The notes: generated by a model from the sequence alone, not told the origin. Positions 20,720-45,961 are shown, counted from the first letter of the stretch. The stretch is DNA of 64,000 nucleotides from Candidatus Aminicenantes bacterium (GCA_014727835.1 WJMT01000102.1:660-64659), one strand, 5' to 3'. Translations and numbers: made by a program.

Positions 20720-21994
20720 TTAGTTTGATTGTTTATGGCCGGATTTGAGTCTTTGGTATTCTTTTTTCATTTGATCCAGGTCTTGGGCGAGCTCAAAAAA
20801 TCCGTGCCAGTGGGCGTAGTCCTGGCCCATCATAGCTGTCCCCATCCTTGCTCTGCGGCCCTCATGGTGCCACAGGTGATAGAAAATCAACTCGATTTCA
20901 TCGTCCCATGGATTGTCCTTTGTGATGAGATTGAGTTCATAAAGCTCGTCTATCATGGTTTTAGCAGGCTTGTAGTATTTTTCATTATAAGTTTGGATGG
21001 CAAGGTCGTACTGGTTGTAGAATCCATTGACCCATGAAGGGCTGTGGCAGCTCAAACAGACTTTTTTCATCATCAATCGGTTTTTTTCCCAATCAGCAGT
21101 GCGCACACTGAGAGGCCGTTCAGCCTGCCAGGAAAGACGCAGAGAAATGTTATGGGAGGTGGAAAGGTCGCTGATTCCAGACATATGACAGACAGCGCAG
21201 GTGGGAGCGGAATAATCTCCGGGTTCCCAGGCATCTGGGGCGCTGTCCCAGGTCCAGCTGTCTCCCTCAGCACGAGTTCGCTTGCCGTGTTTGGATTCCT
21301 CCCAGATTTCGATTTGGGGATGATCAGGACCCATATGGCAGGCTCCGCAGGTGTCTCCTTTTCTGGCTTCCACTATGCTGAAAAGATGACGGGTGTGACA
21401 GGAGGTGCAGTTTCCCGAAGAACCGTCAGGATTGACTCTGCCGATTCCTTCCTGGGGATAGTGATCTCCTCCAGGACGTCCCTTGTCAAATTCAATGATT
21501 CCGCCGTGGCATTGGACACATCCTGTGGCTTCGGGTGCTGTAGAACCTTTGCCCTCCCAGTCTATGGACATGCTTTTCAGTTTCTTGATGGAATCATATC
21601 CAATGGCATGGTCACTGGCCGCAAACTGTTCTGCCTCAACAGGATGACAGCGTGAGCAGTCCTTTGGAGTGGGTACAGAGGTGATGTGGACTTTTGTGCG
21701 GCGAAGGCCTTGGCACTGAAAGGAGTCTGTTTCATTCTTATCTGCTTGATGGCAGTCTAAACAGGTCACATTAGAGCGGCCATGGAGGCTGTTCTTCCAG
21801 TCAAGCACAATGAGCGGGTTTTGGTCTTGATGGCATGTGATGCAGTCTTTGCTGATTTGGCTGATTCCGCGGTTGACTTCAATGACTTTTTGGTTGAGGG
21901 ATCCCATGGTCTCTTGTTTTGAACTCAATGTCCAACCCATAATACCGAGGGATATGGACAAGATGACTATGAGCACATAATGAATTTGTTTCAT
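20720..21994 (-). CDS. octahaem cytochrome c of the hydroxylamine oxidoreductase (HAO) family, short form
   Basis: Eight CxxCH sites: CITCH, CLDCH, CSRCH, CVQCH, CTSCH, CGACH, CAVCH, CLSCH. HAO-like segments CGACHMGPDHPQIEIWEESKHG and WHHEGRRARMG..DYAHWHG. N-terminal membrane anchor or signal. GAGGAGG SD. Confidence 0.88.
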   Translation of the reverse strand: MKQIHYVLIVILSISLGIMGWTLSSKQETMGSLNQKVIEVNRGISQISKDCITCHQDQNPLIVLDWKNSLHGRSNVTCLDCHQADKNETDSFQCQGLRRTKVHITSVPTPKDCSRCHPVEAEQFAASDHAIGYDSIKKLKSMSIDWEGKGSTAPEATGCVQCHGGIIEFDKGRPGGDHYPQEGIGRVNPDGSSGNCTSCHTRHLFSIVEARKGDTCGACHMGPDHPQIEIWEESKHGKRTRAEGDSWTWDSAPDAWEPGDYSAPTCAVCHMSGISDLSTSHNISLRLSWQAERPLSVRTADWEKNRLMMKKVCLSCHSPSWVNGFYNQYDLAIQTYNEKYYKPAKTMIDELYELNLITKDNPWDDEIELIFYHLWHHEGRRARMGTAMMGQDYAHWHGFFELAQDLDQMKKEYQRLKSGHKQSN

Positions 21995-22029
21995 AGCTCC
22001 TCCTCATTGAAACAAGGAATTTTTTCTAT

Positions 22030-22587
22030 TTATTCATAAGATTTTTTAATGTGTTTGTCTGTGAACAGAATGGGGGTGTTGTAGTGAACCATTTTCTCAT
22101 GACAGTCCCAGCACTTTTTTTGGATTGTGCTGTTCTGCCATTCACGGTGGGCAAGGAAACCTCCACGATTGATACTGGGAGGAGTGAGGTCTTGATGGCA
22201 TGTGATGCAGGCGTCTTCAAAAAGGTAATTCTGTTTGGTGTGGGTTTTTTCTTCCCAACTGATTTTTGAAGGATCTCCAAGATAATGAACCACCACATCT
22301 CGAAGCCCGGAATAGGCTTTGTAGGAATAGCGGGAAAGACCAGAAGCTGGCAGGTGACAGTCCACACAGTCTGCCACCACCCCATAGGGATTGACGGAAT
22401 GGCTTGACATTTCCCAAGTCTTCACCCGCACCTGCATTTCATGGCATCTCCCACAGAATGTGTTGGTCCCGGTGAGATTAAAGCTGAGATGAGTGAAGCC
22501 GATAAAGAACAGAGTCACAAATATCCCCACTAGAAACGTGACCACATACTTCCATTTTTTGATGAGCCAGCGAAAAAAGCGCATCAT
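22030..22587 (-). CDS. NapC/NirT/NrfH-family tetrahaem membrane quinol dehydrogenase
   Basis: N-terminal TM helix plus four CxxCH sites (CGRCH, CVDCH, CITCH, CWDCH). Lies 35 nt upstream of the HAO-like gene on the same strand. Confidence 0.88.
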   Translation of the reverse strand: MMRFFRWLIKKWKYVVTFLVGIFVTLFFIGFTHLSFNLTGTNTFCGRCHEMQVRVKTWEMSSHSVNPYGVVADCVDCHLPASGLSRYSYKAYSGLRDVVVHYLGDPSKISWEEKTHTKQNYLFEDACITCHQDLTPPSINRGGFLAHREWQNSTIQKKCWDCHEKMVHYNTPILFTDKHIKKSYE

Positions 22588-22614
22588 TTTGTTTTATCCG
22601 AAGTTGCTGACATT

Positions 22615-22642
22615 AGTATAGTGAAACGGGAGGGATAGTCAA
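22615..22642 (-). promoter_or_regulatory. sigma70-like promoter for the nrfH-like/HAO-like operon
   Basis: On the minus strand: TTGACT (22642-22637), 16-nt spacer, TATACT (22620-22615), about 28 nt upstream of the start codon. Confidence 0.4.
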
Positions 22643-22736
22643 CAATTAATATCGTCGGAGGGCCTGATGCTTGCATTACAGCAGTTGAATTGATAAAGTG
22701 AATGTCTAATCATTCCTTTTAAATAGGAGGAGTTTT

Positions 22737-23270
22737 ATGAAACCCAGAGGCCCTTTAATGATAGAACACCGTCTTATAGAGAAAATGATATCTTTGATCG
22801 AAAATGAGATCTCCAAAATTGCAGATACTGGAAAAACATACCCTGATTTCATTGATACGGCTGTGGATTTCATCCGCACCTATGCTGACCGCACTCACCA
22901 CGGCAAAGAGGAAGACATCTTGTTTCGCGAATGTAAAAAAAAGACCATGTCCCCACAAGACACCCAGGTTATGAATGAACTCATTGATGAGCATAAATTC
23001 GGAAGAAAAGTGGTGGGTGAACTGGTGAAAGCCAGACAAGAATACGTTAAAGAGGGCCGCAGCCTGGAAACCATTGCAGACAAACTCCAGACTTTGGTTG
23101 ATTTTTATCCCAAACACATCAAAAAAGAGGATGATGTGTTTTTTCCTCATTCTGAAAAGTACTTCTCAGCAGATGAACAGCAGCTCCTGCTCCAAGAGTT
23201 TTGGGAGTTTGACAAAAACATGATCCATGAGAAGTACAAAGCAGTGGTTGAACAGCTTAAAAACAAGTGA
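22737..23270 (+). CDS. hemerythrin-like (HHE cation-binding) domain protein
   Basis: AGGAGG SD. His/Glu/Asp ligand pattern: MIEHRLIE, HHGKEEDILF, DEHKFG, HIKKEDDVFF. Confidence 0.8.
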   Translation: MKPRGPLMIEHRLIEKMISLIENEISKIADTGKTYPDFIDTAVDFIRTYADRTHHGKEEDILFRECKKKTMSPQDTQVMNELIDEHKFGRKVVGELVKARQEYVKEGRSLETIADKLQTLVDFYPKHIKKEDDVFFPHSEKYFSADEQQLLLQEFWEFDKNMIHEKYKAVVEQLKNK

Positions 23271-24394
23271 TTTATAAAAAGCTGGCCCGTCATCTGGATG
23301 ACCTTCCAGGGGGATTTCCGGAAACCAAAAGCGGAGTGGAACTTCGCATTCTGCGCCGGATGTTCACTCCGGAGCAAGCCCGGCTTGCACTCAAACTCAC
23401 TTTAATCCCAGAGCAAACTGACGTGATCGCAAAGCGGGCCAAAATCCCTGTCAAAAAGGCATCGGATCTGCTTGAACAGATGGCTAAAAAAGGCCTCATC
23501 TACCGTTTGAAAAGGAAAGGCCAGCCGGCTCGCTTTATGGCGGTTCAGTTTGTCATCGGGATCTGGGAGCTTCATGTCAATGACCTGGACCCGGATCTGA
23601 TCCGGGATTTCAATGAATACGCACCAACCTTATTCGATTTTGATGAGTGGAAGAAGGCGCCCCAGCTGAGAACCATTCCGGTTGAACAGAGTATCAGGGC
23701 AGATTTGGAGGTCCTCCCCTATGAGGATGCAGCGAAGCTGATCCAAAGCCGGTCCAAATTTTTGGAAGCTCCCTGTATCTGCAGAAAAGAACGCCGTATT
23801 ATGGGGGAAGGATGCGGCAAAACAGAGGGGAACTGTTTGATTATGGGAGTGGGAGTGGAGATATACAAGAATGTGGGGATTGGAAAAGAGATCAGTCAAA
23901 AGCAAGCCCTGGAGCTGATCAAAAAAGCAGATAAAGAAGGATTGGTTCTTCAGGCCAGTTTTTCGAAAAAGATCGCCAATATATGCTGCTGCTGCGGCTG
24001 CTGCTGTCAGGTTCTCAAAAGTTTTAAAAAGCATGCCATGCCTTCCAGTCTGGTAGCATCAGCTTTTGTTGCTCAGTGGGATCCGGATGCGTGCACAGGC
24101 TGCGGAGAGTGTGTGGATCGTTGCCAGATGGATGCAATCCGAATGGATGATGGTATAGCTGTATTGGATGCCGACAAATGCATTGGCTGCGGCTTGTGTG
24201 TTTCTTCCTGCTCCAGCCAGGCTCTCTTTTTAAAAAGAAAGCCCGGCCCTGAGAGTCCCAAAATTCCGGAAAAATTGACCCATGCGGCGGTCAAAAGACT
24301 TCGAGTGAGAGGGAAACTCGGACGGGGAAAAGTCAGTTCGCTGCTTTTGCGCTCCCAGAAAGCCCGGCCCTTTTCAAAGGGGAAAAGGGCCTAA
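23267..24394 (+). CDS. Fe-S protein: N-terminal helical domain, Cys-run region, and a C-terminal 2x[4Fe-4S] ferredoxin domain
   Basis: GTG start overlaps the upstream stop (GTGA). CTGCGECVDRC and CIGCGLCVSSC dicluster motifs. Additional Cys blocks PCICRKERRIMGEGCG..GNC and ICCCCGCCCQ. Confidence 0.8.
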   Translation: MIYKKLARHLDDLPGGFPETKSGVELRILRRMFTPEQARLALKLTLIPEQTDVIAKRAKIPVKKASDLLEQMAKKGLIYRLKRKGQPARFMAVQFVIGIWELHVNDLDPDLIRDFNEYAPTLFDFDEWKKAPQLRTIPVEQSIRADLEVLPYEDAAKLIQSRSKFLEAPCICRKERRIMGEGCGKTEGNCLIMGVGVEIYKNVGIGKEISQKQALELIKKADKEGLVLQASFSKKIANICCCCGCCCQVLKSFKKHAMPSSLVASAFVAQWDPDACTGCGECVDRCQMDAIRMDDGIAVLDADKCIGCGLCVSSCSSQALFLKRKPGPESPKIPEKLTHAAVKRLRVRGKLGRGKVSSLLLRSQKARPFSKGKRA

Positions 24395-37362: not shown

Positions 37363-37686
37363 CTAACCTGGATTGACCAAAATATCACGGTATTTTTTAT
37401 GTTTCCTTACATACATGGCCACATAAGAACAACTGGGGATCACAGAAAAATTGTTTTCCCGGGCATAGTCCAGTGCGGTTTGAGTGAGTTTGTCGGCGAT
37501 GCCTTTATTGCGGAATTCCGGAGGCACATACACATGAGCATAGTCCAATATTCTTGGTTCTGGTTTTTCATAGGAAAGATAACCGATTTTTTTGTCCAGC
37601 CTCACGGCAAACCGCCTTGCCGTACGTTCATGACGCACAATCATTGACTGGAGATCAAAATGCATCATTTTAGAGTCACGATTCAT
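37363..37686 (-). CDS. small GNAT-like acetyltransferase (YjdJ-type single domain)
   Basis: HVYVPPEFRNKGIADKLTQTALDYARENNFSVIPSCSYV matches the short GNAT_acetyltran family pattern. Start overlaps the sdhB end by 11 nt. Confidence 0.75.
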   Translation of the reverse strand: MNRDSKMMHFDLQSMIVRHERTARRFAVRLDKKIGYLSYEKPEPRILDYAHVYVPPEFRNKGIADKLTQTALDYARENNFSVIPSCSYVAMYVRKHKKYRDILVNPG

Positions 37687-38395
37687 GTTTTTTGATGTCC
37701 TTTTTGGTGAGATTGATGAGTTTTGTGACTTTTATATTCCGAGGGCAGACCTGAGTGCAGTTGAAATAATTTTGGCAGGACCAAACACCGTTCGGAGAAT
37801 TCAGTTCAGAAAGTCTTTGTTCAAAACCGTCATCTCTGGAATCAAACAGAAAACGGGCAGCCTGGACAATGGAGGCCGGCCCGATGTATTGAGGATTTTC
37901 CTTTTGGATAACAGGGCAAGCAGAATAACAGGAAGCACAGAGAATGCATTTGGTGGCATCATCTATTTTTTTTCTTTGTTCAGGACTCTGCACGCTTTCC
38001 TTTGAGACGGCCTTTTTTTTGGTGATGAAAAAAGGTTTGACCTGCCGGTAGCTGTTGATAAATTTCTTTTGGTCCACCATGAGGTCTCTTTGAACTGGCA
38101 GGGTGCGCAGAGGTTCGATCCGAATGCAAGCACCTTCCTTGTCTGCAATGGTTTTGATCAGAGTTTTGCAGGCAAGTCTCTCCTTTCCGTTCACTACAAT
38201 GGCATCTGATCCGCATACTCCGTGGCCGCAGCTTTTTCTGAAGCTGAGAGAAGGATCGAACTTTCTTTTGATATCCATAAGCACATCAAGAAGCCGGTCG
38301 TTTGGATCACCATTGACTTTGTATTTTTGGTAAAAAGGTTTTTTATTTTTTTCTGGATTGGAGCGTTTGATCTCAATGTTGAGTTTCATAATCAA
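37676..38395 (-). CDS. sdhB: succinate dehydrogenase/fumarate reductase iron-sulfur subunit
   Basis: 2Fe-2S CGHGVCGSD..C, 4Fe-4S CILCASCYSACP, 3Fe-4S C..CTQVCP. Confidence 0.92.
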   Translation of the reverse strand: MIMKLNIEIKRSNPEKNKKPFYQKYKVNGDPNDRLLDVLMDIKRKFDPSLSFRKSCGHGVCGSDAIVVNGKERLACKTLIKTIADKEGACIRIEPLRTLPVQRDLMVDQKKFINSYRQVKPFFITKKKAVSKESVQSPEQRKKIDDATKCILCASCYSACPVIQKENPQYIGPASIVQAARFLFDSRDDGFEQRLSELNSPNGVWSCQNYFNCTQVCPRNIKVTKLINLTKKDIKKHES

Positions 38396-38410
38396 TGATA
38401 AACATCCTTC

Positions 38411-40147
38411 CTAATACACACGGGGCTTGGGTTTCCATTTGTCGATATCAACGGATTTGGCCCCAAACGAGACCCGGTCATCTTTGAGCCAGGACAAGGT
38501 GTGTTTGAGCCAATTCTCGTCATCCCTCTCCGGATGATCCTCCCGGGCATGAGCTCCTCTGGATTCTTTTCTTTCTAAAGCGCAGGATACAGACAAATAA
38601 GCAAGATCAAGGAGGTTGCCTAGTTCTAATATCTCGAGCAGATGCGTGTTGAACGGCTTGCTGTCATCCTGGAGCTGTACTTTTTTATAGTCCTCCCTGA
38701 GATCTTGAATCAGGGCCAGGGCTTTTTCCATATGTTTTCCGTTTCGGAAAACACCCGCGTTTTGGGTCATGGTTTTCTGTAATTTCAAACGAATTTCTTC
38801 AGGACAAGCTCCTTTCCCTCTTTGTTTGAGTTTTTCGATCTGCGCTTCAATTTGCTTGGCTCTTTTTTTTGGAAAATCAGCAAAATCAGCATCTTTGACA
38901 AACTCTGCCATCTCAATGCCGGCTCGTTTCCCGAACACAATCAAGTCCACCAGACTATTTGTGCCCAGACGATTGGCCCCATGGACTGATACACAGGCGC
39001 ATTCCCCTGCTGCATACAGTCCTTCATAAAAAGACCCTTTTCCATCTGCGGCTACCTTTCCGTTTTGGTCAGTAGGGATCCCTCCCATAGCATAATGGGC
39101 TGTAGGCTGGACAGGAATGGGTTTTTCCGCTGGATCGATCCCCAGATAAGTCCTGCTGAAATCCGCAATTTCCGGCAGTTTCTCTTCAATGACATCTTTT
39201 CCTAAATGAGTGGCATCGAGATGAACAAAGTCATCAATAGAGCGGTCCCCTTTGATTCCTTTTCCCCTTCGGATCTCTTTCATGATAGCCCGGGCCACCA
39301 TATCACGAGGAGCCAGGTCGAGAAGCTTGGGTGCGTACTTCTCCATAAACCGGTCTCCATCCTGGTTTCTAAGGATGCCTCCTTCTCCTCTCACTCCTTC
39401 GGTGATCAGGATGCCCATTCCATAGATTCCGGTGGGATGAAATTGAAAAAATTCCAGGTCTTCCAGAGGCACCCCTTTTCTCAGGCAAAGGGCGGGACCG
39501 TCTCCGGTGTTGGCATAAGCATTGGATGTGATGCGGAACATGCGTCCGAATCCTCCGGTGGCAAACAAAATAGCTTTAGCTTTGAAGGTGTGGACTTCTC
39601 CTGTGGCCAGCTCCAGGGCTAGGATTCCTCCGCACTTTTTTTGATCAAAAACCAGGTCAACAACCTGGAATTCATTAAAAAAGGACACCTGGTTTTTAAT
39701 GCACTGCTGATAAAGGGTTTGAAGGATCATATGTCCTGTTCTGTCTGCTGCATAACAAGCTCTGCGGACTGGGGCTTCCCCGAAATTCCGGGTGTGGCCT
39801 CCGAATCGTCTCTGATCGATCAAGCCCTCAGGAGTTCGATTGAACGGGAGGCCCCGGTTTTCAAGGTCATAGACCGCTTGCACAGCTGTTTCGGCCAGGA
39901 TGCTGGCCGCCTTCTGGTCCACCAGATAGTCTCCCCCTTTGACTGTATCAAAAGCATGCCACTCAGGTTTGTCTTCCTCCACATTCCCCAGTGCTGCGCT
40001 GATGCCCCCCTGTGCAGCTCCTGTATGAGAGCGGATGGGATAGAGCTTGGAGAGAACCGCTGTTTTGGCTTTTTTGCTGGCTTCCAGAGCCGCATACAGT
40101 CCGGCTCCCCCGGCTCCGATGATGATGACTTCATATTCGTGGATCAA
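38411..40147 (-). CDS. sdhA: succinate dehydrogenase/fumarate reductase flavoprotein subunit
   Basis: FAD fold IIIGAGGAGLYAA, plus HPTG, RGEGG and HYAMGG. The track ORF begins at a GTG at 40204. I prefer the TTG at 40147 because AGAAGG lies 6 nt upstream and a promoter-like element sits inside the longer version. Confidence 0.92.
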   Translation of the reverse strand: MIHEYEVIIIGAGGAGLYAALEASKKAKTAVLSKLYPIRSHTGAAQGGISAALGNVEEDKPEWHAFDTVKGGDYLVDQKAASILAETAVQAVYDLENRGLPFNRTPEGLIDQRRFGGHTRNFGEAPVRRACYAADRTGHMILQTLYQQCIKNQVSFFNEFQVVDLVFDQKKCGGILALELATGEVHTFKAKAILFATGGFGRMFRITSNAYANTGDGPALCLRKGVPLEDLEFFQFHPTGIYGMGILITEGVRGEGGILRNQDGDRFMEKYAPKLLDLAPRDMVARAIMKEIRRGKGIKGDRSIDDFVHLDATHLGKDVIEEKLPEIADFSRTYLGIDPAEKPIPVQPTAHYAMGGIPTDQNGKVAADGKGSFYEGLYAAGECACVSVHGANRLGTNSLVDLIVFGKRAGIEMAEFVKDADFADFPKKRAKQIEAQIEKLKQRGKGACPEEIRLKLQKTMTQNAGVFRNGKHMEKALALIQDLREDYKKVQLQDDSKPFNTHLLEILELGNLLDLAYLSVSCALERKESRGAHAREDHPERDDENWLKHTLSWLKDDRVSFGAKSVDIDKWKPKPRVY

Positions 40148-40172
40148 TGTCAGCCTTCTTAAGAATGCTTCC

Positions 40173-40201
40173 ACTCTAGAGGCATCTGCTGTTTTTGTCA
40201 A
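40173..40201 (-). promoter_or_regulatory. sigma70-like promoter for sdhAB
   Basis: Minus strand: TTGACA (40201-40196), 17-nt spacer, TAGAGT (40178-40173). Confidence 0.35.
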
Positions 40202-40350
40202 CACCTATTCGGTTGACCTCAAGACAATCCTCTGGGCTTGACTTTTGATTGTTTTGCATTTAATCTTCCAGCGGGGATAGGCAAAAACATTCCCGATTGA
40301 GGACAAAACCTGATTTCTTTAAAAACAACTGTGTCATAGAGGATTGCACC

Positions 40351-41766: not shown

Positions 41767-41804
41767 GCCTATTTCTATAAATATTGATTGAGGAGAGATC
41801 AAAC

Positions 41805-43580
41805 ATGAAAAAATGGAAGTGTACAGTCTGTGGGTACATATATGATGAGGCCAAAGAAAAAACTCCTTTTGAAGAGCTTCCGGATGACTGGACATGCCCT
41901 CAATGCGGGGCGCCGAAATCAGCATTTATCCCAATAGAGGGAACAAAAAAAGAAGACAAAGCAGAGGCCAGCGTGGCTGAGAAAATCGTGGAACAGCTGA
42001 TCGCCTATGGAGTGAGCCGTGTGTTCGGGATCCCGGGACATTCAAACTTGCCTTTAACAGAGGCTATACGGAAAAATCCGGATATGGACTTGATCTTAAC
42101 CCGTCATGAAGAATCCGCTGCATTCATGGCATCTGCACATGCCAAGCTCACGGGTGAACTCGGAGTCTGCATGTCCATTGCAGGGCCTGGAGCCACTAAT
42201 CTCATAACCGGTATTGTGGATGCAGCAACAGACAGGGCTCCTGTTCTAGCCTTGCTGGGACAGGTCCCCAAAGTATTTCTGGGAAGTGAATCACTTCAGG
42301 AGATTGCAGAAGTGGATATTTTCAAAACCTTTTGTGTTTATGCAGAGCTGATATCCAATCCGGGTCAGGCCTTGAAAGTATTGAACCAGGGGATTAAAAA
42401 AGCTTATGCAGCTCCTGGCCCTTCTGCTTTGAGCCTCCCCACGGATGTTCTGGAGGAATCGCTGGGGGAAAAGATTTGGGAACCCAAGCATCATCTGTTT
42501 TGTCCGGACCTCTCTCCCGGAGACGAGGTAAAAAAAGCAGCTGAATTGATAAAAAAAAGCAAGCGGCCCCTTCTTTTTGCCGGATGGGGAGCCCGTGGTT
42601 GCGGTTCAGAACTCATAAAGCTAGCCAGACATATAGGGGCACCTATTGCCACCACATCAAGAGCAAAAGGAGTGGTTCCAGAATCCGATGAACTTGTTTT
42701 GGGAGTGCTGGGTTCCATCGGGAACAGTTTTGCTCCAAGAATCGTGGCCCGATCTGACTTGATCATCATCTTGGGCAGCGGATTCAGGCAGCGTCAGCTG
42801 GTCCCGGATGTGGATGTGATCCAGGTTGATATCGATGCCACCAGGGTGGGCAAGACATTTCCTGTGAAGCTGGGCATAGTGGGAGATGCCTCGCGGGTGG
42901 TAAAAATGCTGAACCGGGAAACTGAAGAAAGAAAGATGGAGGAGGAATTTAGAAAGGCAGTGAATAAAGCAAACAAGGACTATCAGGCGGTTCTCAAAAA
43001 AGATGCTGAAAACAAACAAAAACCCATTTATCCCGGTGCTGTAGTCCAAGCTCTGAAAAGACAGCTGGCAGACGATGCGCTCATCTGTTCCGATGTGGGA
43101 GATCACACCTACTGGTTCTACAAAAGATTTGTCTGTGAAGCCCAGCAAACACTTTTTTGTGCCAATATGGCGGGAATGGGCTTTGGGATCCCAGCTGCCA
43201 TTGCCTGTCAGATGGAACAACCCAATCGCCAGGTGGTGGCTTATGCAGGAGACGGAGGATTTGGTATGGTGGGGATGGAATTCACCACAGCTGTGCACAA
43301 CAGACTTCCTCTCACGGTGGTGGTCCTCAATGATGGGAAACTGAAAAACATCAAAAAAGAACAGGAGGAATACGGGTATCCTGAATATAGAGTCAGTTTT
43401 CCCAATCCAAACCTGGCGGATATGGCCTCCTCGTGTGGAGGTTTGGGGATCAGGGTGAAAGAGCCTCAACAACTGGATAAGGCGTTGAGAGAAGCTCTGG
43501 ATTCGTCCTTGACTGCTTTAGTGGAAGTCATTGTTGATCCGAATGAATACATTTCAGCGGTCCGCCGGCAAGAGATGTGA
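41805..43580 (+). CDS. rubredoxin domain fused to a pyruvate oxidase/acetolactate synthase-family TPP enzyme
   Basis: GAGGAG SD. N-terminus [12 protein letters not shown]...[12 protein letters not shown] is a rubredoxin CxxCG...CPxCG motif. Then [33 protein letters not shown] and GDGGFGM...LNDG (TPP-binding motif). Lies 38 nt after the aspA-like gene. Confidence 0.88.
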
Positions 43581-43584
43581 AGGG

Positions 43585-43613
43585 TTGACAGCTGGGAAAA
43601 CAGTTAGTATTCT
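43585..43613 (+). promoter_or_regulatory. sigma70-like promoter for the DUF2769-like/cytochrome operon
   Basis: TTGACA (43585-43590), 17-nt spacer, TATTCT (43608-43613). Confidence 0.4.
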
Positions 43614-43694
43614 TATAGGAAAAGTTAAGAAAAAAAAAGTTTGCATAAATTGAAAAAACAGGTAACATAATGACAAAGAGAGGGAGGGAATAGC

Positions 43695-43919
43695 ATGCCT
43701 CAAGTCAATGACACCCAAGAAAATTTGCAGAAATGCATTTGTGGTCAGTGTCCTTCATACAATCAATGTATGGGAGATAAGACCGAAGGACTGTATTGTG
43801 CAAGAGGAAAAAGCTCTTGTGAATTTGAAAAGAACGGTTGTGTGTGTGGAGCCTGTCCCCTGACTTCAGAATATGGACTTGAACAGCTGTATTACTGCGA
43901 GATCGGAAGAGACGAATAA
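43695..43919 (+). CDS. small cytoplasmic Cys-rich protein, DUF2769-like
   Basis: GAGGGAGGG SD. 74 aa with no signal peptide. Cys skeleton CICGQCPSY..C..YC..C..GCVCGACP..YYC. Confidence 0.7.
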   Translation: MPQVNDTQENLQKCICGQCPSYNQCMGDKTEGLYCARGKSSCEFEKNGCVCGACPLTSEYGLEQLYYCEIGRDE

Positions 43920-43931
43920 ATCCAAATCAAC

Positions 43932-44648
43932 ATGAGTCTGTTTCTTTTTAAATCCATGCTGGCTGTTGTTTTTTTTGCCGCAGCTGTAACTGCTGTCATA
44001 AGTATGCTGACCCTAATGGGAAGGCAGGAAAAAAAGATCAGCTCAAAAGGATTGAGACAAATCCATAGAGCTGCAGGCTACACCTTTTTCATCTTTTTGA
44101 TAGGGATTTCCATCATTTGCATTCATTATGTGGCCAAAGTGGGGGATGCCCTTTCATTCAGGGCTTTCACACACAGTGTATTAGCGCTGGCTCTTTTTGT
44201 CATTTTAGTGCTCAAGATGTCTATTGTGCGGTTCTTTAAAGGATTTCTCAAAATCGCTCCTCAATTGGGGATGATGGTTTTTGTGTTGGCCTTTTTGGTT
44301 TTTTCCACTTCAGCCGGATTTTTTTTCCTCATGACCTTCAGTTCTGTCAAGAGTCAAGAGGAGACATCAATGCAGACACCGGTTTCTGAGAATGGCCCTA
44401 TAGAGAGAGGCACCACCCTGTTCCAGAATAAATGTATGTCCTGTCACTATCCGGATAAGGAAAAAAACAAATCAGGCCCCGGGCTCAAGAATCTATTTCA
44501 AAAAGAAAAACTTCCTTTCAGCAACAAACCTGTTACAGAAGCGAACGTACTCGGTCAGCTGCAGAGGCCTGCTCTGGTCATGCCTTCCTTCCCTTCTCTT
44601 TCAGAGCAGGAACAGGCCGACCTGATTGCTTATTTAAAGACACTTTAA
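43932..44648 (+). CDS. four-TM membrane protein fused to a C-terminal monohaem class I-like cytochrome c domain
   Basis: Four hydrophobic helices carry His residues (QIHRAAGY, CIHYVA, FTHSVLA). C-terminal domain has CMSCH, GPGLKN and LVMPSF. Starts 12 nt after the upstream gene. Confidence 0.75.
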   Translation: MSLFLFKSMLAVVFFAAAVTAVISMLTLMGRQEKKISSKGLRQIHRAAGYTFFIFLIGISIICIHYVAKVGDALSFRAFTHSVLALALFVILVLKMSIVRFFKGFLKIAPQLGMMVFVLAFLVFSTSAGFFFLMTFSSVKSQEETSMQTPVSENGPIERGTTLFQNKCMSCHYPDKEKNKSGPGLKNLFQKEKLPFSNKPVTEANVLGQLQRPALVMPSFPSLSEQEQADLIAYLKTL

Positions 44649-44694
44649 AAATATCATAACTTTGCATTCAAATATGAATAAAAATGGAGGCAAC

Positions 44695-45120
44695 ATGAAA
44701 AGAAGGGAATTTTTTGAAAAAAGTGCTTGTAGCGTGGCGGCTCTGGTCTTAGCCAAGTTCGGGCTGTCTGCATCCGGCTTGTCAGATGAAGAAATGAGCA
44801 GAGAAGAATATGTGAAGAAACTGTTGATGGACAAAATGGGAATGTCTGAAGAGGAAGCTAAAAAAGAAATTGAAAAGATGAAGGAAAAGCTCCCCAAAGT
44901 CAAGGAAATGTGCATTTGTAAGGACTGTCCTACTTATGTGGGTGAGGAGACCGAAGTGGGTTTTTGTCACCCACTGATCGGAAAGAGCAAGGTCATTACC
45001 AAAGAAAACGGCTGCAACTGCCCCACATGCCCTGTGTATAAGAAGATGGAGCTTAAAAACGGTTACTACTGCACCCGGAAGTCTGAGATGGAACAGGAAA
45101 TGGCCAAAAAGGAAAAATAG
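44695..45120 (+). CDS. Tat-signal-bearing DUF2769-like Cys-rich protein
   Basis: GGAGG lies 4 nt before the ATG at 44695. MKRREFFEKSACSVAALVLAKFGLSASG carries a twin-arginine motif. An E/K-rich linker follows, then CICKDCPTY..FC..GCNCPTCP..YYC. Confidence 0.7.
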   Translation: MKRREFFEKSACSVAALVLAKFGLSASGLSDEEMSREEYVKKLLMDKMGMSEEEAKKEIEKMKEKLPKVKEMCICKDCPTYVGEETEVGFCHPLIGKSKVITKENGCNCPTCPVYKKMELKNGYYCTRKSEMEQEMAKKEK

Positions 45121-45322: not shown

Positions 45323-45961
45323 ATGGCCCAAGATGACAAACCCATTATCAAGCCCACTCGAAACGGCCCTTTTCTGGTGAAAAATGTAAAGCAATTTGAA
45401 AATTCGAAAGGTGAGGATTTGAAGCCTCCTTCAAACATGATGCTCTGCCGGTGTGGAGGTTCCAAGAACAAGCCTTTTTGTGACGGGGCTCATTTGAAAA
45501 ACGGATTTGAAGATAAAAAGGACCCCAGAAGAGTCAAAGATAAAAAGGATGATTATGTGGGCAGAGATATCACCATCCATGATAACCGCGGTGTATGCTC
45601 TCACAGGGAGCACTGCATCAATCATGCACCCAAAGTTTTCCGCAGAAGAGGAAAACCGTGGATCGACCCGGATGCTCAGGATGCGGAAGAGACAGCAAGA
45701 GTTATTGAGATGTGTCCTTCAGGAGCCCTGAGCTACACCAAAGACGGGGTCCTTCATGAGGATTGGAAACAAAAGCCAGCTATCCTCATTTCCAAAGATG
45801 GGCCTTACGATGTCCATGGTTGTGTCGAGCTGGATGATCCGGAGGGAAACAAACCTGAGGCTGAGGACCACTACACGCTCTGCCGGTGCGGCCATTCCAA
45901 GAACAAGCCGTTTTGTGACGGCCGCCATTGGCGAGTCCGGTTTAAAGACCCCAAGAACTAA
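45323..45961 (+). CDS. iron-sulfur protein: CDGSH domain, divergent mono-cluster ferredoxin-like domain, CDGSH domain
   Basis: CRCGGSKNKPFCDGAH and CRCGHSKNKPFCDGRH (CDGSH 2Fe-2S motifs). The central segment GVCSHREHCINHAP...MCPSGAL resembles the divergent 4Fe-4S mono-cluster family. AGGAGA SD. Confidence 0.85.
   Translation: MAQDDKPIIKPTRNGPFLVKNVKQFENSKGEDLKPPSNMMLCRCGGSKNKPFCDGAHLKNGFEDKKDPRRVKDKKDDYVGRDITIHDNRGVCSHREHCINHAPKVFRRRGKPWIDPDAQDAEETARVIEMCPSGALSYTKDGVLHEDWKQKPAILISKDGPYDVHGCVELDDPEGNKPEAEDHYTLCRCGHSKNKPFCDGRHWRVRFKDPKN

What the first reader, a model, noticed from the sequence alone, without database searches (positions are those of the whole stretch)
43585..45120. Three-gene operon pairs a cytoplasmic and a Tat-exported DUF2769-like Cys-rich protein around a 4-TM::cytochrome c fusion (candidate transmembrane electron-transfer module)
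**Seen in sequence**
- A TTGACA-N17-TATTCT promoter (43585-43613) is followed by three ORFs separated by only 12 and 46 nt.
- ORF1 (74 aa, no signal peptide) and the last roughly 60 aa of ORF3 share one cysteine skeleton: C-I-C-x2-C-P-[ST]-Y ... [YF]-C ... G-C-x-C-x2-C-P ... Y-Y-C.
- ORF3 begins MKRREFFEKSACSVAALVLA, which is RRxFF plus a hydrophobic region. An E/K-rich linker follows.
- ORF2, between them, has four hydrophobic helices carrying His residues (QIHRAAGY, CIHYVA, FTHSVLA).
- ORF2 also has a C-terminal soluble domain with a single CMSCH site, GPGLKN, and a candidate distal Met (LVMPSF).
- The basic loops RQEKKISSKGLRQIHR and RFFKGFLK, read with the positive-inside rule, place the haem-c domain outside the cytoplasmic membrane.

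**Established knowledge**
- CxxCH marks covalent haem c, which is matured outside the cytoplasm.
- RRxF(F/L) leaders route pre-folded cofactor proteins through the Tat pathway.
- The Cys pattern is the one I remember for the uncharacterised DUF2769 family.

**Inference**
- One metal/Fe-S-type paralog on each face of the membrane, bracketing a possibly b-haem-binding membrane domain with a c-haem head, looks like a dedicated transmembrane electron conduit. I know of no characterised example.
- A rubredoxin-TPP oxidoreductase fusion immediately upstream and a CDGSH protein downstream reinforce the redox context.
Basis: partly seen in the sequence, partly recalled or inferred. Interest (0 to 1): 0.8.

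Follow-up and report, generated by a model that had tools for sequence, protein, structure and literature searches.

The report
Membrane cytochrome flanked by DUF2769 proteins
In an uncultured Aminicenantes bacterium, a membrane cytochrome gene sits between two small cysteine-rich genes, one product staying inside the cell and one apparently exported; together they look like an undescribed route for moving electrons across the cell membrane, but no experiment has tested this.

Summary
Three same-strand genes lie 12 and 46 nt apart.
- **ORF1** (43695-43919) is a 74-aa DUF2769 protein.
- **ORF2** (43932-44648) is a four-helix DUF6529 membrane domain fused to a class I cytochrome c.
- **ORF3** (44695-45120) has an MKRREFF signal-type leader, a helical hairpin and a second DUF2769 domain.

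All Pfam hits pass their gathering cut-offs. Eight Cys are conserved across both DUF2769 types. The positive-inside rule puts the haem-c domain outside the cytoplasm.

The leader's RR-[DE]-F-F motif is present in 119 of 120 homologs. It is followed by a lipobox in about half of them and by an AxA-like site in many of the rest, though the Tat-signal HMMs do not fire.

Synteny is real but looser than proposed. Of 38 related loci, 30 have at least one adjacent DUF2769 gene and only 8 have the full trio. The wider conserved unit is cytoplasmic DUF2769 plus DUF6529::cyt c. Most Aminicenantes loci also carry a rubredoxin::FTR-like gene and a thioredoxin-like gene, which this window lacks.

DUF6529 has two invariant His, one near each membrane face, and weak recurrent similarity to cytochrome b561 families. 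DUF2769 has no solved structural relative, and its cofactor is unknown.

A transmembrane electron-transfer module is the best reading, but it is unproven. I found no literature on either DUF family's function.

The parts
43585..43613 (+). Sigma-70-like promoter match, TTGACA-17-TATTCT, upstream of ORF1.
   Evidence: One search gives 10 of 12 consensus matches. The region has 5 such sites against 3.6 expected in shuffles, so this is not evidence on its own.
43695..43919 (+). ORF1: a 74-aa cytoplasmic DUF2769 protein (NCBI MBD3414854.1). It has no signal peptide or hydrophobic segment. The 8-Cys skeleton is C14, C16, C19, C35, C49, C51, C54, C68.
   Evidence: - Pfam PF10967, E = 1.6e-17.
- 37 homologs were found; 34 are exactly 74 aa and the rest 72-88 aa.
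- Maximum hydropathy over an 11-residue window is 1.2.
- Exact sequence found in NCBI.
43932..44342 (+). ORF2 residues 1-137: DUF6529 four-helix membrane domain. H45 (44064-44066) and H81 (44172-44174) are invariant; K95, G30, G49 and G113 are near-invariant; M25 and R77 are about 90% conserved.
   Evidence: - Pfam PF20139, E = 1e-8.
- The AlphaFold2 model has four long helices.
- Conservation was measured in 132 diverse relatives.
- Sub-threshold Ni_hydr_CYTB, DUF4079, DUF4405 and Cytochrom_B561 hits occur in relatives.
44400..44648 (+). ORF2 residues 157-238: class I cytochrome c domain. CMSCH is at 44433-44447, and the candidate distal Met217 at 44580-44582. The domain is predicted to be periplasmic.
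   Evidence: - PF00034, E = 2.5e-13.
- Mitochondrial-type cytochrome c hits in PDB.
- Foldseek hit to the caa3 subunit II cytochrome c domain, 2yev_B.
- C168, C171, H172, M217 and P218 are invariant.
- Loop charge bias supports an outside location.
44695..44775 (+). ORF3 residues 1-27: twin-arginine-type signal peptide, MKRREFFEKSACSVAALVLAKFGLSAS. There is no lipobox Cys in this copy; SPase I cleavage after SAS or LSA is likely.
   Evidence: - 119 of 120 homologs have RR-[DE]-F-F-E-K.
- About half have an L[TSN]SC lipobox. Many of the rest have AxA-like sites at the same position.
- The Pfam and NCBIfam scans returned no Tat-signal hit.
44800..44910 (+). ORF3 residues 36-72: conserved helical hairpin that precedes the DUF2769 domain. 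It is specific to the exported type.
   Evidence: AlphaFold2 predicts helices 36-48 and 52-72 with pLDDT 79-96. The region is conserved in alignment A2.
44911..45075 (+). ORF3 residues 73-127: DUF2769 domain. The Cys are C73, C75, C78, C91, C107, C109, C112, C126, with H92 next to C91.
   Evidence: - PF10967, E = 3.7e-16.
- Invariant Cys shown.
- The model has pLDDT above 90 but is mostly coil, with no PDB fold match.
41784..43580 (+). Upstream neighbour: rubredoxin fused to a pyruvate-oxidase/acetolactate-synthase-type TPP enzyme. The true start is probably the MKKWKC Met near 41805.
   Evidence: - Pfam Rubredoxin plus TPP_enzyme_N, M and C domains.
- Best NCBIfam hit is pyruvate oxidase, below its cut-off.
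- Found in the same position in 14 of 38 related loci.
45323..45961 (+). Downstream neighbour: CDGSH-Fer4_19-CDGSH iron-sulfur protein.
   Evidence: Pfam hits. The same 212-aa architecture directly follows an ORF1-type DUF2769 gene in L055.

Best explanation
The three genes encode a membrane-spanning redox module.

**ORF2** is a bc-type membrane cytochrome. Its DUF6529 four-helix bundle is a remote relative of cytochrome b561-type bundles. It has one invariant His near the cytoplasmic face (H45) and one near the periplasmic face (H81). This bundle is fused to a periplasmic class I haem-c domain.

**ORF1** is a small cytoplasmic DUF2769 protein with eight conserved Cys arranged as an internal duplication, 2 x (C-x-C-x2-C-P ... 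aromatic-C). It most likely carries metal or Fe-S centres and docks on the cytoplasmic face.

**ORF3** is its paralog. It is folded and loaded in the cytoplasm, then exported by a twin-arginine-type signal peptide. About half of the orthologs are lipid-anchored; this copy is not. It serves as the periplasmic partner of the haem-c domain.

Electrons would then pass between cytoplasmic low-potential donors and periplasmic partners without necessarily using the quinone pool. Candidate donors are the adjacent rubredoxin::pyruvate-oxidase-like enzyme and, in other genomes, rubredoxin::FTR-like or FNR-like proteins.

**Shown**
- Domain identities, Cys, His and haem-motif conservation.
- Predicted topology and signal-peptide architecture.
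- Gene linkage across several lineages.

**Inferred**
- Haem b in the bundle and Fe-S in DUF2769.
- Tat dependence, physical contacts between the proteins, and the direction of electron flow.
For: **Domain identities**
- Domain calls are above curated cut-offs.

**ORF2**
- H45 is conserved in 131/132, H81 in 132/132 and K95 in 130/132 DUF6529 relatives down to about 27% identity. Most of these relatives are fused to 1-3 CxxCH domains.
- Of 36 diverse relatives, 20 give sub-threshold Ni_hydr_CYTB hits. Others hit DUF4079, DUF4405 and Cytochrom_B561.
- Foldseek's best matches to the bundle are haem-binding four-helix proteins, although all have E > 0.4.
- Charge bias places the haem-c domain outside.

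**DUF2769 and the ORF3 leader**
- Eight Cys are conserved across both DUF2769 types, and a half-domain self-match supports an internal repeat.
- The ORF3 leader has RR-[DE]-F-F in 119/120 homologs, with lipobox or AxA-like alternatives at the same position.

**Gene linkage**
- 30 of 38 loci have at least one adjacent DUF2769 gene.
- The ORF1-type/cytochrome pair stands alone in MAGs labelled Zixibacteria and Ignavibacteria, with unrelated neighbours. MAGs labelled Krumholzibacteriota and further Zixibacteria/Ignavibacteria also carry only the pair, with no other cluster gene detected.
- A DUF2769 gene lies about 2 kb downstream in 9 of 29 loci of a clade only about 30% identical to ORF2.

**Redox context**
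- ORF1-type genes sit beside redox proteins elsewhere: FNR-like, CDGSH, Pyr_redox_2.
- The organism makes periplasmic c-type cytochromes: NapC/NirT plus a multihaem protein at 20720-22587.
Against: - Only two invariant His lie in the bundle, about a membrane width apart. That is too few for two bis-His haems in a monomer.
- Every cytochrome b family hit is below its cut-off, and the PDB profile search finds nothing.
- The Pfam and NCBIfam scans gave no Tat-signal hit in any of 24 ORF3-type proteins. I could not check whether the genome has Tat machinery.
- The DUF2769 cofactor is unknown. There is no PDB sequence or fold match.
- The HPAD small-subunit and HiPIP similarity is sub-threshold and fails hhalign, with probability 0.3%.
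- The trio is present in only 8 of 38 loci, and 8 loci have no DUF2769 gene at all.
- ORF1-type genes also occur with no cytochrome nearby, so the partnership is not obligate.
Confidence: 0.5

Rival explanations
1. ORF2 is an ordinary quinol-linked bc-type cytochrome: a menaquinol:cytochrome c oxidoreductase in the manner of CbcL or cytochrome b561. The DUF2769 proteins are general small redox carriers that serve neighbouring enzymes such as the rubredoxin::TPP enzyme, FTR-like and CDGSH proteins. On this reading the cluster is a redox island, not a dedicated conduit with a partner on each face.
For: - A membrane b-type domain fused to a periplasmic c-type domain is a known quinol oxidase layout (CbcL, PMC9129911).
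- ORF1-type DUF2769 occurs without any cytochrome, next to FNR-like or CDGSH genes.
- 8 of 38 cytochrome loci lack DUF2769.
- Cluster composition varies.
Against: - DUF2769 adjacency recurs in several lineages, including a clade only about 30% identical to ORF2. A family this rare would not be expected to recur there by chance.
- An exported DUF2769 paralog directly downstream of the cytochrome in 23 of 38 loci needs a periplasmic role.
- No quinone-site signature could be identified.
Confidence: 0.2
2. The DUF2769 proteins are not electron carriers. They are Cys-rich metal-binding proteins for Zn, Cu or Fe, of metallothionein, zinc-ribbon or metallochaperone type. They would handle or buffer a metal on both sides of the membrane, and the conserved His, Met and Lys of the DUF6529 bundle would bind or pass a metal ion rather than haem.
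For: - C-x-C-x2-C motifs and a coil-rich fold without regular secondary structure are typical of metal-thiolate proteins.
- There is no significant match to any Fe-S fold.
- Weak zinc-finger HMM hits (zf-Paramyx-P) occur in 11 of 24 homologs.
Against: - Relatives of the bundle are nearly always fused to haem-c domains, and their weak family hits are to cytochrome b families, not transporters.
- The neighbours are redox enzymes, not metal pumps or regulators.
- A twin-arginine-type leader suggests export of a pre-loaded cofactor protein.
Confidence: 0.15
3. The module is a thiol-disulfide relay analogous in function to DsbD/CcdA. Reducing power from the cytoplasmic FTR-like/thioredoxin-like pair would be passed to the exported Cys-rich DUF2769, whose Cys would be redox-active disulfides.
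For: A rubredoxin::FeThRed_B gene and a 92-aa CPHC thioredoxin-like gene follow the cytochrome and DUF2769 genes in 27 of 38 loci.
Against: - The ORF2 membrane domain has no conserved Cys, so it cannot run a DsbD-type cascade.
- This window lacks the FTR-like/thioredoxin-like pair entirely.
- The non-Aminicenantes-labelled pairs lack it too.
- The haem-c fusion points to one-electron chemistry.
Confidence: 0.08

Closest known systems
Geobacter CbcL / Cbc-type inner-membrane bc cytochromes
   Same: A transmembrane b-type cytochrome domain is fused to a periplasmic c-type cytochrome domain and passes electrons from the membrane to periplasmic carriers (PMC9129911).
   Different: - CbcL has a six-helix di-haem HydC/FdnI-type domain and nine c-haems, and it oxidises menaquinol.
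- ORF2 has a four-helix DUF6529 domain with only two invariant His and one c-haem.
- ORF2 is genetically linked to soluble Cys-rich proteins on both sides of the membrane.
- There is no family-level hit to Ni_hydr_CYTB: 12.5 bits against a cut-off of 30.1.
Cytochrome b561 / NOX / STEAP / MsrQ-type transmembrane electron shuttles
   Same: - These are helical bundles with haems stacked near each membrane face that carry electrons from a cytoplasmic donor to an extracytoplasmic acceptor.
- The weak Foldseek hits (4o6y, 5o0t, 6y9b) and sub-threshold Pfam hits (Cytochrom_B561, DUF4079, DUF4405) are to this group.
   Different: - Those families use four His to hold two haems within one subunit. DUF6529 conserves only two.
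- All matches are below significance.
- In those families the donor is NAD(P)H/flavin or ascorbate. Here it would be a small Cys-rich protein.
HiPIP and the glycyl-radical-enzyme small subunits (HPAD gamma)
   Same: - These are small, coil-rich Cys proteins. HPAD gamma binds two [4Fe-4S] clusters and resembles HiPIP (PMC13450708).
- From my own knowledge, HiPIPs are Tat-exported periplasmic electron carriers that partner with cytochromes.
- 11 of 24 ORF3-type proteins hit the HPAD small-subunit model (best E = 8e-5), and 9 of 24 hit HIPIP weakly.
   Different: - All hits are below curated cut-offs.
- hhalign against 2y8n_B gives 0.3% probability.
- Foldseek does not recover either fold.
- The C-x-C-x2-C-P spacing is different.
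E. coli PoxB (pyruvate:quinone oxidoreductase), compared with the upstream gene
   Same: It is a TPP/FAD pyruvate-oxidase-type enzyme that delivers electrons from pyruvate to the membrane. The best NCBIfam matches are pyruvate oxidase and pyruvate dehydrogenase.
   Different: - The enzyme here carries an N-terminal rubredoxin domain and scores below every equivalog cut-off.
- Its acceptor would be a protein, not a quinone.
DsbD/CcdA
   Same: It transfers reducing power from the cytoplasm to the periplasm, and thioredoxin-like genes are linked to it.
   Different: DsbD uses Cys pairs in its membrane domain. ORF2 has none conserved and carries haem instead.

Membership tests
DUF2769 (PF10967) | Pfam HMM score above the gathering threshold. 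| tested here: met
   ORF1 scores 64.2 bits and ORF3 59.9 bits against a cut-off of 22.8. All 24 ORF3-type homologs also hit.
DUF2769 (PF10967) | Conserved Cys skeleton, C-x-C-x2-C-P ... C ... C-x-C-x2-C-P ... Y-Y-C. | tested here: met
   C73, C75, C78, P79, C107, C109, C112 and C126 are invariant, and C91 is at least 90% conserved, in 150 sequences of both types.
Class I cytochrome c (PF00034) | HMM above threshold, one CxxCH, and a distal Met. | tested here: met
   - 51.6 bits against a cut-off of 21.3.
- C168, C171, H172 and M217-P218 are invariant in 120 homologs.
- The Met assignment rests on conservation. The pairwise alignment to horse cytochrome c is ambiguous at that loop.
Class I cytochrome c (PF00034) | Domain located outside the cytoplasm, where haem c is attached. 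| tested here: met
   - The positive-inside rule was applied to 120 homologs. Mean K+R is 6.3 in loop 1 and 2.5 in loop 3.
- By contrast, mean K+R is 1.0 at the N-terminus and 1.3 in loop 2, and the net charge after TM4 is -0.9.
- This is a prediction only. DeepTMHMM was not available.
DUF6529 (PF20139) | Pfam HMM score above the gathering threshold. | tested here: met
   35.4 bits against a cut-off of 23.3. 30 of 36 diverse relatives also hit.
Di-haem cytochrome b (Ni_hydr_CYTB / cytochrome b561 group) | Family HMM above threshold. | tested here: not met
   - ORF2 scores 12.5 bits against a cut-off of 30.1.
- 20 of 36 relatives hit only below threshold, best E = 5e-4.
- The PDB profile search finds no cytochrome b.
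Di-haem cytochrome b (Ni_hydr_CYTB / cytochrome b561 group) | Four conserved His that ligate two haems within the bundle. | tested here: not met
   Only H45 and H81 are invariant. Haems at a dimer interface, or His/Met ligation (M25 in 119/132), would be needed.
Di-haem cytochrome b (Ni_hydr_CYTB / cytochrome b561 group) | Four-helix (or larger) haem-binding bundle fold. | tested here: inconclusive
   AlphaFold2 gives four long helices. Foldseek hits to the designed di-haem protein 4D2, HyaC, cytochrome b561, STEAP1 and NOX5 all have E > 0.4.
Twin-arginine (Tat) signal peptide | RR motif, then a moderately hydrophobic h-region, then a signal-peptidase site. | tested here: met
   - M-K-R-R-[DE]-F-F-E-K occurs in 119 of 120 homologs.
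- An h-region of about 15 residues follows, with hydropathy 1.8 over 15 aa.
- A lipobox occurs in about 62 of 120 homologs. Many of the rest have AxA-like sites.
- The consensus SRRxFLK is taken from PMC3712460 (abstract listed).
Twin-arginine (Tat) signal peptide | Detection by curated Tat-signal HMMs (Pfam TAT_signal, TIGR01409). | tested here: not met
   No such hit appeared in any of 24 homologs at E up to 10. These are short models, and HMMER's filters drop weak hits.
Twin-arginine (Tat) signal peptide | TatA/TatC present in the genome, and export dependent on RR. | not testable with these tools
   No TatA-like ORF was found in the window or the fetched loci. Whole genomes could not be searched, and export needs an experiment.
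Bacterial lipoprotein | Lipobox [LVI][ASTG][GAS]C at the end of the signal peptide. | tested here: not met
   The window's ORF3 reads FGLSASG, with no Cys. About half of the orthologs have L[TSN]SC.
HiPIP / HPAD gamma [4Fe-4S] proteins | Family HMM above threshold, or a significant profile or fold match. | tested here: not met
   - NF033716 gives a best E of 8e-5, below its 50-bit cut-off, and HIPIP gives E = 0.12.
- hhalign against 2y8n_B gives 0.3% probability.
- Foldseek gives no match.
Single operon | Same strand, short gaps, no internal terminator, shared promoter. | tested here: inconclusive
   - Gaps of 12 and 46 nt on the same strand.
- Two weak terminator-like hairpins lie inside ORF2, at chance frequency.
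- The promoter match is not above chance.
- No transcript data are available.

The most novel reading that the evidence does not exclude
DUF2769 is a previously unrecognised class of small two-centre Fe-S electron carrier that works on both faces of the cytoplasmic membrane. DUF6529::cytochrome c is its dedicated, quinone-independent transmembrane wire, possibly with haems b held at a dimer interface by one His per leaflet. This would let largely fermentative Aminicenantes move electrons from pyruvate oxidation directly to periplasmic or extracellular acceptors, or take them up in the reverse direction.
Probability: 0.22. Interest if true: 0.75.

Novelty: new variant of a known kind. Interest (0 to 1): 0.55.

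Why it matters
- Aminicenantes are abundant, uncultured sediment and subsurface bacteria that are usually described as fermenters.
- A conserved route that carries electrons across the cytoplasmic membrane from soluble cytoplasmic redox proteins would change how their energy metabolism is modelled.
- It would also give first functional hypotheses to two families with no described function. Searches for DUF2769 found only two passing mentions, and DUF6529 and both Pfam accessions gave none.
- The hypothesis is directly testable, because the proteins are small and the predictions are specific: cofactor content, His mutants, and RR-dependent export.

Tried and rejected
- **Solved structures for DUF2769.**
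  - PDB sequence searches with ORF1 alone and with a 150-sequence profile found nothing relevant.
  - Foldseek with a confident AlphaFold2 model also found nothing, best E = 2.
- **Kinship to HPAD gamma and HiPIP.**
  - I recovered the 2y8n_B sequence and ran hhalign. The probability was 0.3%.
  - I keep this only as a weak lead.
- **Solved relatives of the DUF6529 bundle.**
  - A profile search against PDB found no cytochrome b.
- **Tat-signal HMMs.**
  - There were no hits.
- **Tat components.**
  - A TatA pattern scan of the window and loci found none, which is uninformative given how little sequence was covered.
- **Metagenome scans.**
  - The narrower alignment A7 worked.
- **Literature.**
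  - Searches for PF10967 and PF20139, and for Aminicenantes with cytochrome or Tat terms, gave nothing relevant.
- **Model coordinates.**
- **Chance adjacency.**
  - I rejected this because the linkage recurs in several lineages.
Full report
**What is there**

The window comes from a Candidatus Aminicenantes MAG contig. ORF1 is identical to MBD3414854.1 ('DUF2769 domain-containing protein') and ORF2 to MBD3414855.1 ('c-type cytochrome'). Three same-strand ORFs lie at 43695-43919, 43932-44648 and 44695-45120, with gaps of 12 and 46 nt.

- ORF1 matches DUF2769 at 64.2 bits.
- ORF3 residues 72-126 match DUF2769 at 59.9 bits.
- ORF2 residues 157-238 match Cytochrom_C.

ORF1 and ORF3 are paralogs, 36% identical with E = 4e-10. 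A secondary match of the first half of ORF1 to the second half of ORF3 shows that the domain is an internal duplication of C-x-C-x2-C-P...aromatic-C. The promoter-like hexamers exist but are no more frequent than in shuffled sequence.

**ORF2**

I found 177 close homologs. Of the 120 listed, 101 are exactly 238 aa (range 210-257), and the named ones are labelled Aminicenantes. In 120 of them, C168, C171, H172 and M217-P218 are invariant. The domain aligns to mitochondrial-type cytochrome c and to the cytochrome c domain of caa3 subunit II.

AlphaFold2 (mean pLDDT 82) gives four long helices, a disordered linker and the cytochrome c fold. Loop charges follow the positive-inside rule. Mean K+R is 6.3 and 2.5 in loops 1 and 3, against about 1 at the N-terminus and in loop 2, and the segment after TM4 is net negative. 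This gives an N-out/C-out topology with the haem-c domain outside.

A full HMMER scan with the membrane domain alone found 260 cluster representatives. In 132 of them, down to about 27% identity, conservation is as follows:

| Residue | Conserved in |
|---|---|
| H45 | 131/132 |
| H81 | 132/132 |
| K95 | 130/132 |
| M25 | 119/132 |
| R77 | 120/132 |

Most of these relatives carry one to three CxxCH motifs after the bundle.

H45 sits at the cytoplasmic end of TM2 and H81 at the periplasmic end of TM3. Of 36 diverse membrane domains, 20 give sub-threshold hits to Ni_hydr_CYTB. Others hit DUF4079, DUF4405 and eukaryotic Cytochrom_B561. Foldseek's best bundle matches are haem-binding four-helix proteins, but all have E > 0.4.

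So a b-type haem domain is plausible but not established. Two His cannot make two bis-His sites in a monomer. Dimer-interface haems or His/Met ligation would have to be assumed.

**ORF3 and the leader**

I found 296 homologs, each of 140-170 aa; every one that carries a source name is labelled Aminicenantes or Acidobacteriota. The N-terminus is unusually conserved: M-K-R-R-[DE]-F-F-E-K-[ST]-G-C-G in 119 of 120. After an h-region of about 15 residues, about half of the homologs have a lipobox (mostly LTSC). Many of the rest have AxA-like sites such as KAYA|K or FASG|Q. The window's copy reads FGLSASG.

Two alternative signal-peptidase motifs at one position are strong evidence for a cleaved export signal. 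The RR-x-F-F core fits the Tat consensus (PMC3712460, PMC7317946). However, the Pfam and NCBIfam scans returned no Tat-signal hit for any of 24 homologs, and I could not check for tatAC.

The 'E/K-rich linker' is in fact a conserved, confidently predicted helical hairpin (residues 36-72), followed by a coil-rich DUF2769 domain with pLDDT above 90.

**What DUF2769 binds is unknown**

Seven Cys are invariant and an eighth is at least 90% conserved across both types. No PDB sequence or fold relative exists.

Eleven of 24 ORF3-type proteins hit the HPAD small-subunit model (best E = 8e-5), and nine hit HIPIP weakly. HPAD gamma binds two [4Fe-4S] clusters and resembles HiPIP (PMC13450708). But hhalign against the solved chain 2y8n_B gives only 0.3% probability. 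Fe-S is therefore an inference, drawn from the Cys pattern, the twin-arginine-type export signal and the redox neighbourhood.

**Synteny**

A scan of GTDB species genomes gave 48 loci. A phmmer census of their ORFs shows this consensus order:

IMPDH - [rubredoxin::TPP enzyme] - [ORF1-type] - DUF6529::cyt c - [ORF3-type] - rubredoxin::FeThRed_B - 92-aa CPHC thioredoxin-like protein - [fumC]

Among 38 loci with adequate flanks (with L022 corrected by hand):

| Arrangement | Loci |
|---|---|
| Both DUF2769 types | 8 |
| ORF3-type only | 15 |
| ORF1-type only | 7 |
| Neither | 8 |
| FTR-like gene present | 27 |
| Rubredoxin::TPP gene present | 14 |

- The window has the full trio but lacks the FTR-like/thioredoxin-like pair.
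- MAGs labelled Zixibacteria and Ignavibacteria carry just the ORF1-type/cytochrome pair among unrelated genes. MAGs labelled Krumholzibacteriota and further Zixibacteria/Ignavibacteria also show only the pair in the census.
- In a clade only about 30% identical to ORF2, 9 of 29 loci with enough downstream sequence have an ORF1-type gene about 2 kb downstream on the same strand. It follows a GH15 gene, and a soluble SoxA/TsdA-like cytochrome c lies upstream.
- ORF1-type genes also occur without any cytochrome: fumC - DUF2769 - CDGSH in L055, an FNR-like gene followed by DUF2769 in L056/L057, and next to Pyr_redox_2 and TauE in L054.

The robust unit is therefore cytoplasmic DUF2769 plus the membrane cytochrome. 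The exported paralog was found only in Aminicenantes/Acidobacteriota-labelled sequences. DUF2769 behaves like a small carrier with several partners.

**Interpretation**

It is a membrane bc-type cytochrome with a Cys-rich partner on the cytoplasmic face and, in Aminicenantes, a second exported partner on the periplasmic face. It would carry electrons across the membrane between soluble redox proteins.

Rivals are:
- an ordinary quinol-linked cytochrome sitting in a redox island (0.2);
- DUF2769 as a non-redox metal-binding protein (0.15);
- a thiol-disulfide relay tied to the FTR-like/thioredoxin-like pair (0.08), which is weakened by the absence of conserved Cys in the membrane domain.

The organism does make periplasmic c-type cytochromes, as shown by the NapC/NirT and multihaem genes at 20720-22587.

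**Novelty**

Fused b/c membrane cytochromes are known, for example CbcL (PMC9129911). The DUF6529 bundle, the DUF2769 partners and the two-sided arrangement are not described in the searchable literature. I rate this a new variant of a known kind. It is of moderate to good interest and is entirely a prediction.

Noticed in passing
L003:6802-7507; also L007, L008, L010 and others (27 of 38 related loci): A rubredoxin::FeThRed_B (FTR catalytic-subunit-like) gene and a 92-aa CPHC thioredoxin-like gene directly follow the cytochrome and DUF2769 genes in most Aminicenantes relatives. Both are absent from this 64-kb window.
   Followed up: partly
window 44722-44733 (ORF3 residues 10-13) and homologs P0121-P0240: A Cys within the h-region of the signal peptide (K-[ST]-G-C-G) is conserved in 115 of 119 homologs. 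That is unusual for a signal peptide. It might be a chaperone-binding site or a transient ligand.
   Followed up: no
L055:1-2085: The order here is fumC - ORF1-type DUF2769 - CDGSH/Fer4_19/CDGSH. These are the window's flanking genes with the rubredoxin::TPP enzyme, the cytochrome and the exported paralog missing.
   Followed up: partly
L056:5295-6219 and L057:3044-3968: An FNR-like flavoprotein gene (FAD_binding_6/NAD_binding_1, 225 aa) lies 28 nt upstream of a 72-aa DUF2769 gene. This fits a ferredoxin-like role for DUF2769.
   Followed up: no
L004:6825-8012; L017 and L027 (downstream of the cytochrome): A DUF5777 'membrane bound beta barrel' protein with an N-terminal C-A-V-T-G-C-H stretch takes the place of the exported DUF2769 gene in some loci.
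   Followed up: no
window 20720-24394: On the minus strand are a NapC/NirT-type tetrahaem cytochrome (22030-22587) and a multihaem cytochrome (20720-21994). On the plus strand are a hemerythrin-domain protein (22737-23270) and a TrmB plus 2x[4Fe-4S] protein (23267-24394).
   Followed up: partly
window 41784-43580: A pyruvate-oxidase/acetolactate-synthase-type TPP enzyme carries an N-terminal rubredoxin domain. The fusion is conserved in 14 of 38 related loci, and I found no literature on it.
   Followed up: partly
window 37676-40204 (minus strand): Succinate dehydrogenase/fumarate reductase flavoprotein-like and Fe-S subunit genes have no adjacent membrane-anchor gene; the next gene is a GNAT acetyltransferase. 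A class II fumarase-like gene lies on the other side. Only the Fe-S subunit and the acetyltransferase were scanned against Pfam. The flavoprotein and fumarase labels come from reading their sequences.
   Followed up: no
L067:4366-8048, L079:2382-6179, L111:4549-8403: In a distant DUF6529::cyt c clade the order is: soluble SoxA/TsdA-like monohaem cytochrome c, DUF6529::cyt c, a GH15 glycoside hydrolase, then a 73-74 aa DUF2769 gene.
   Followed up: partly
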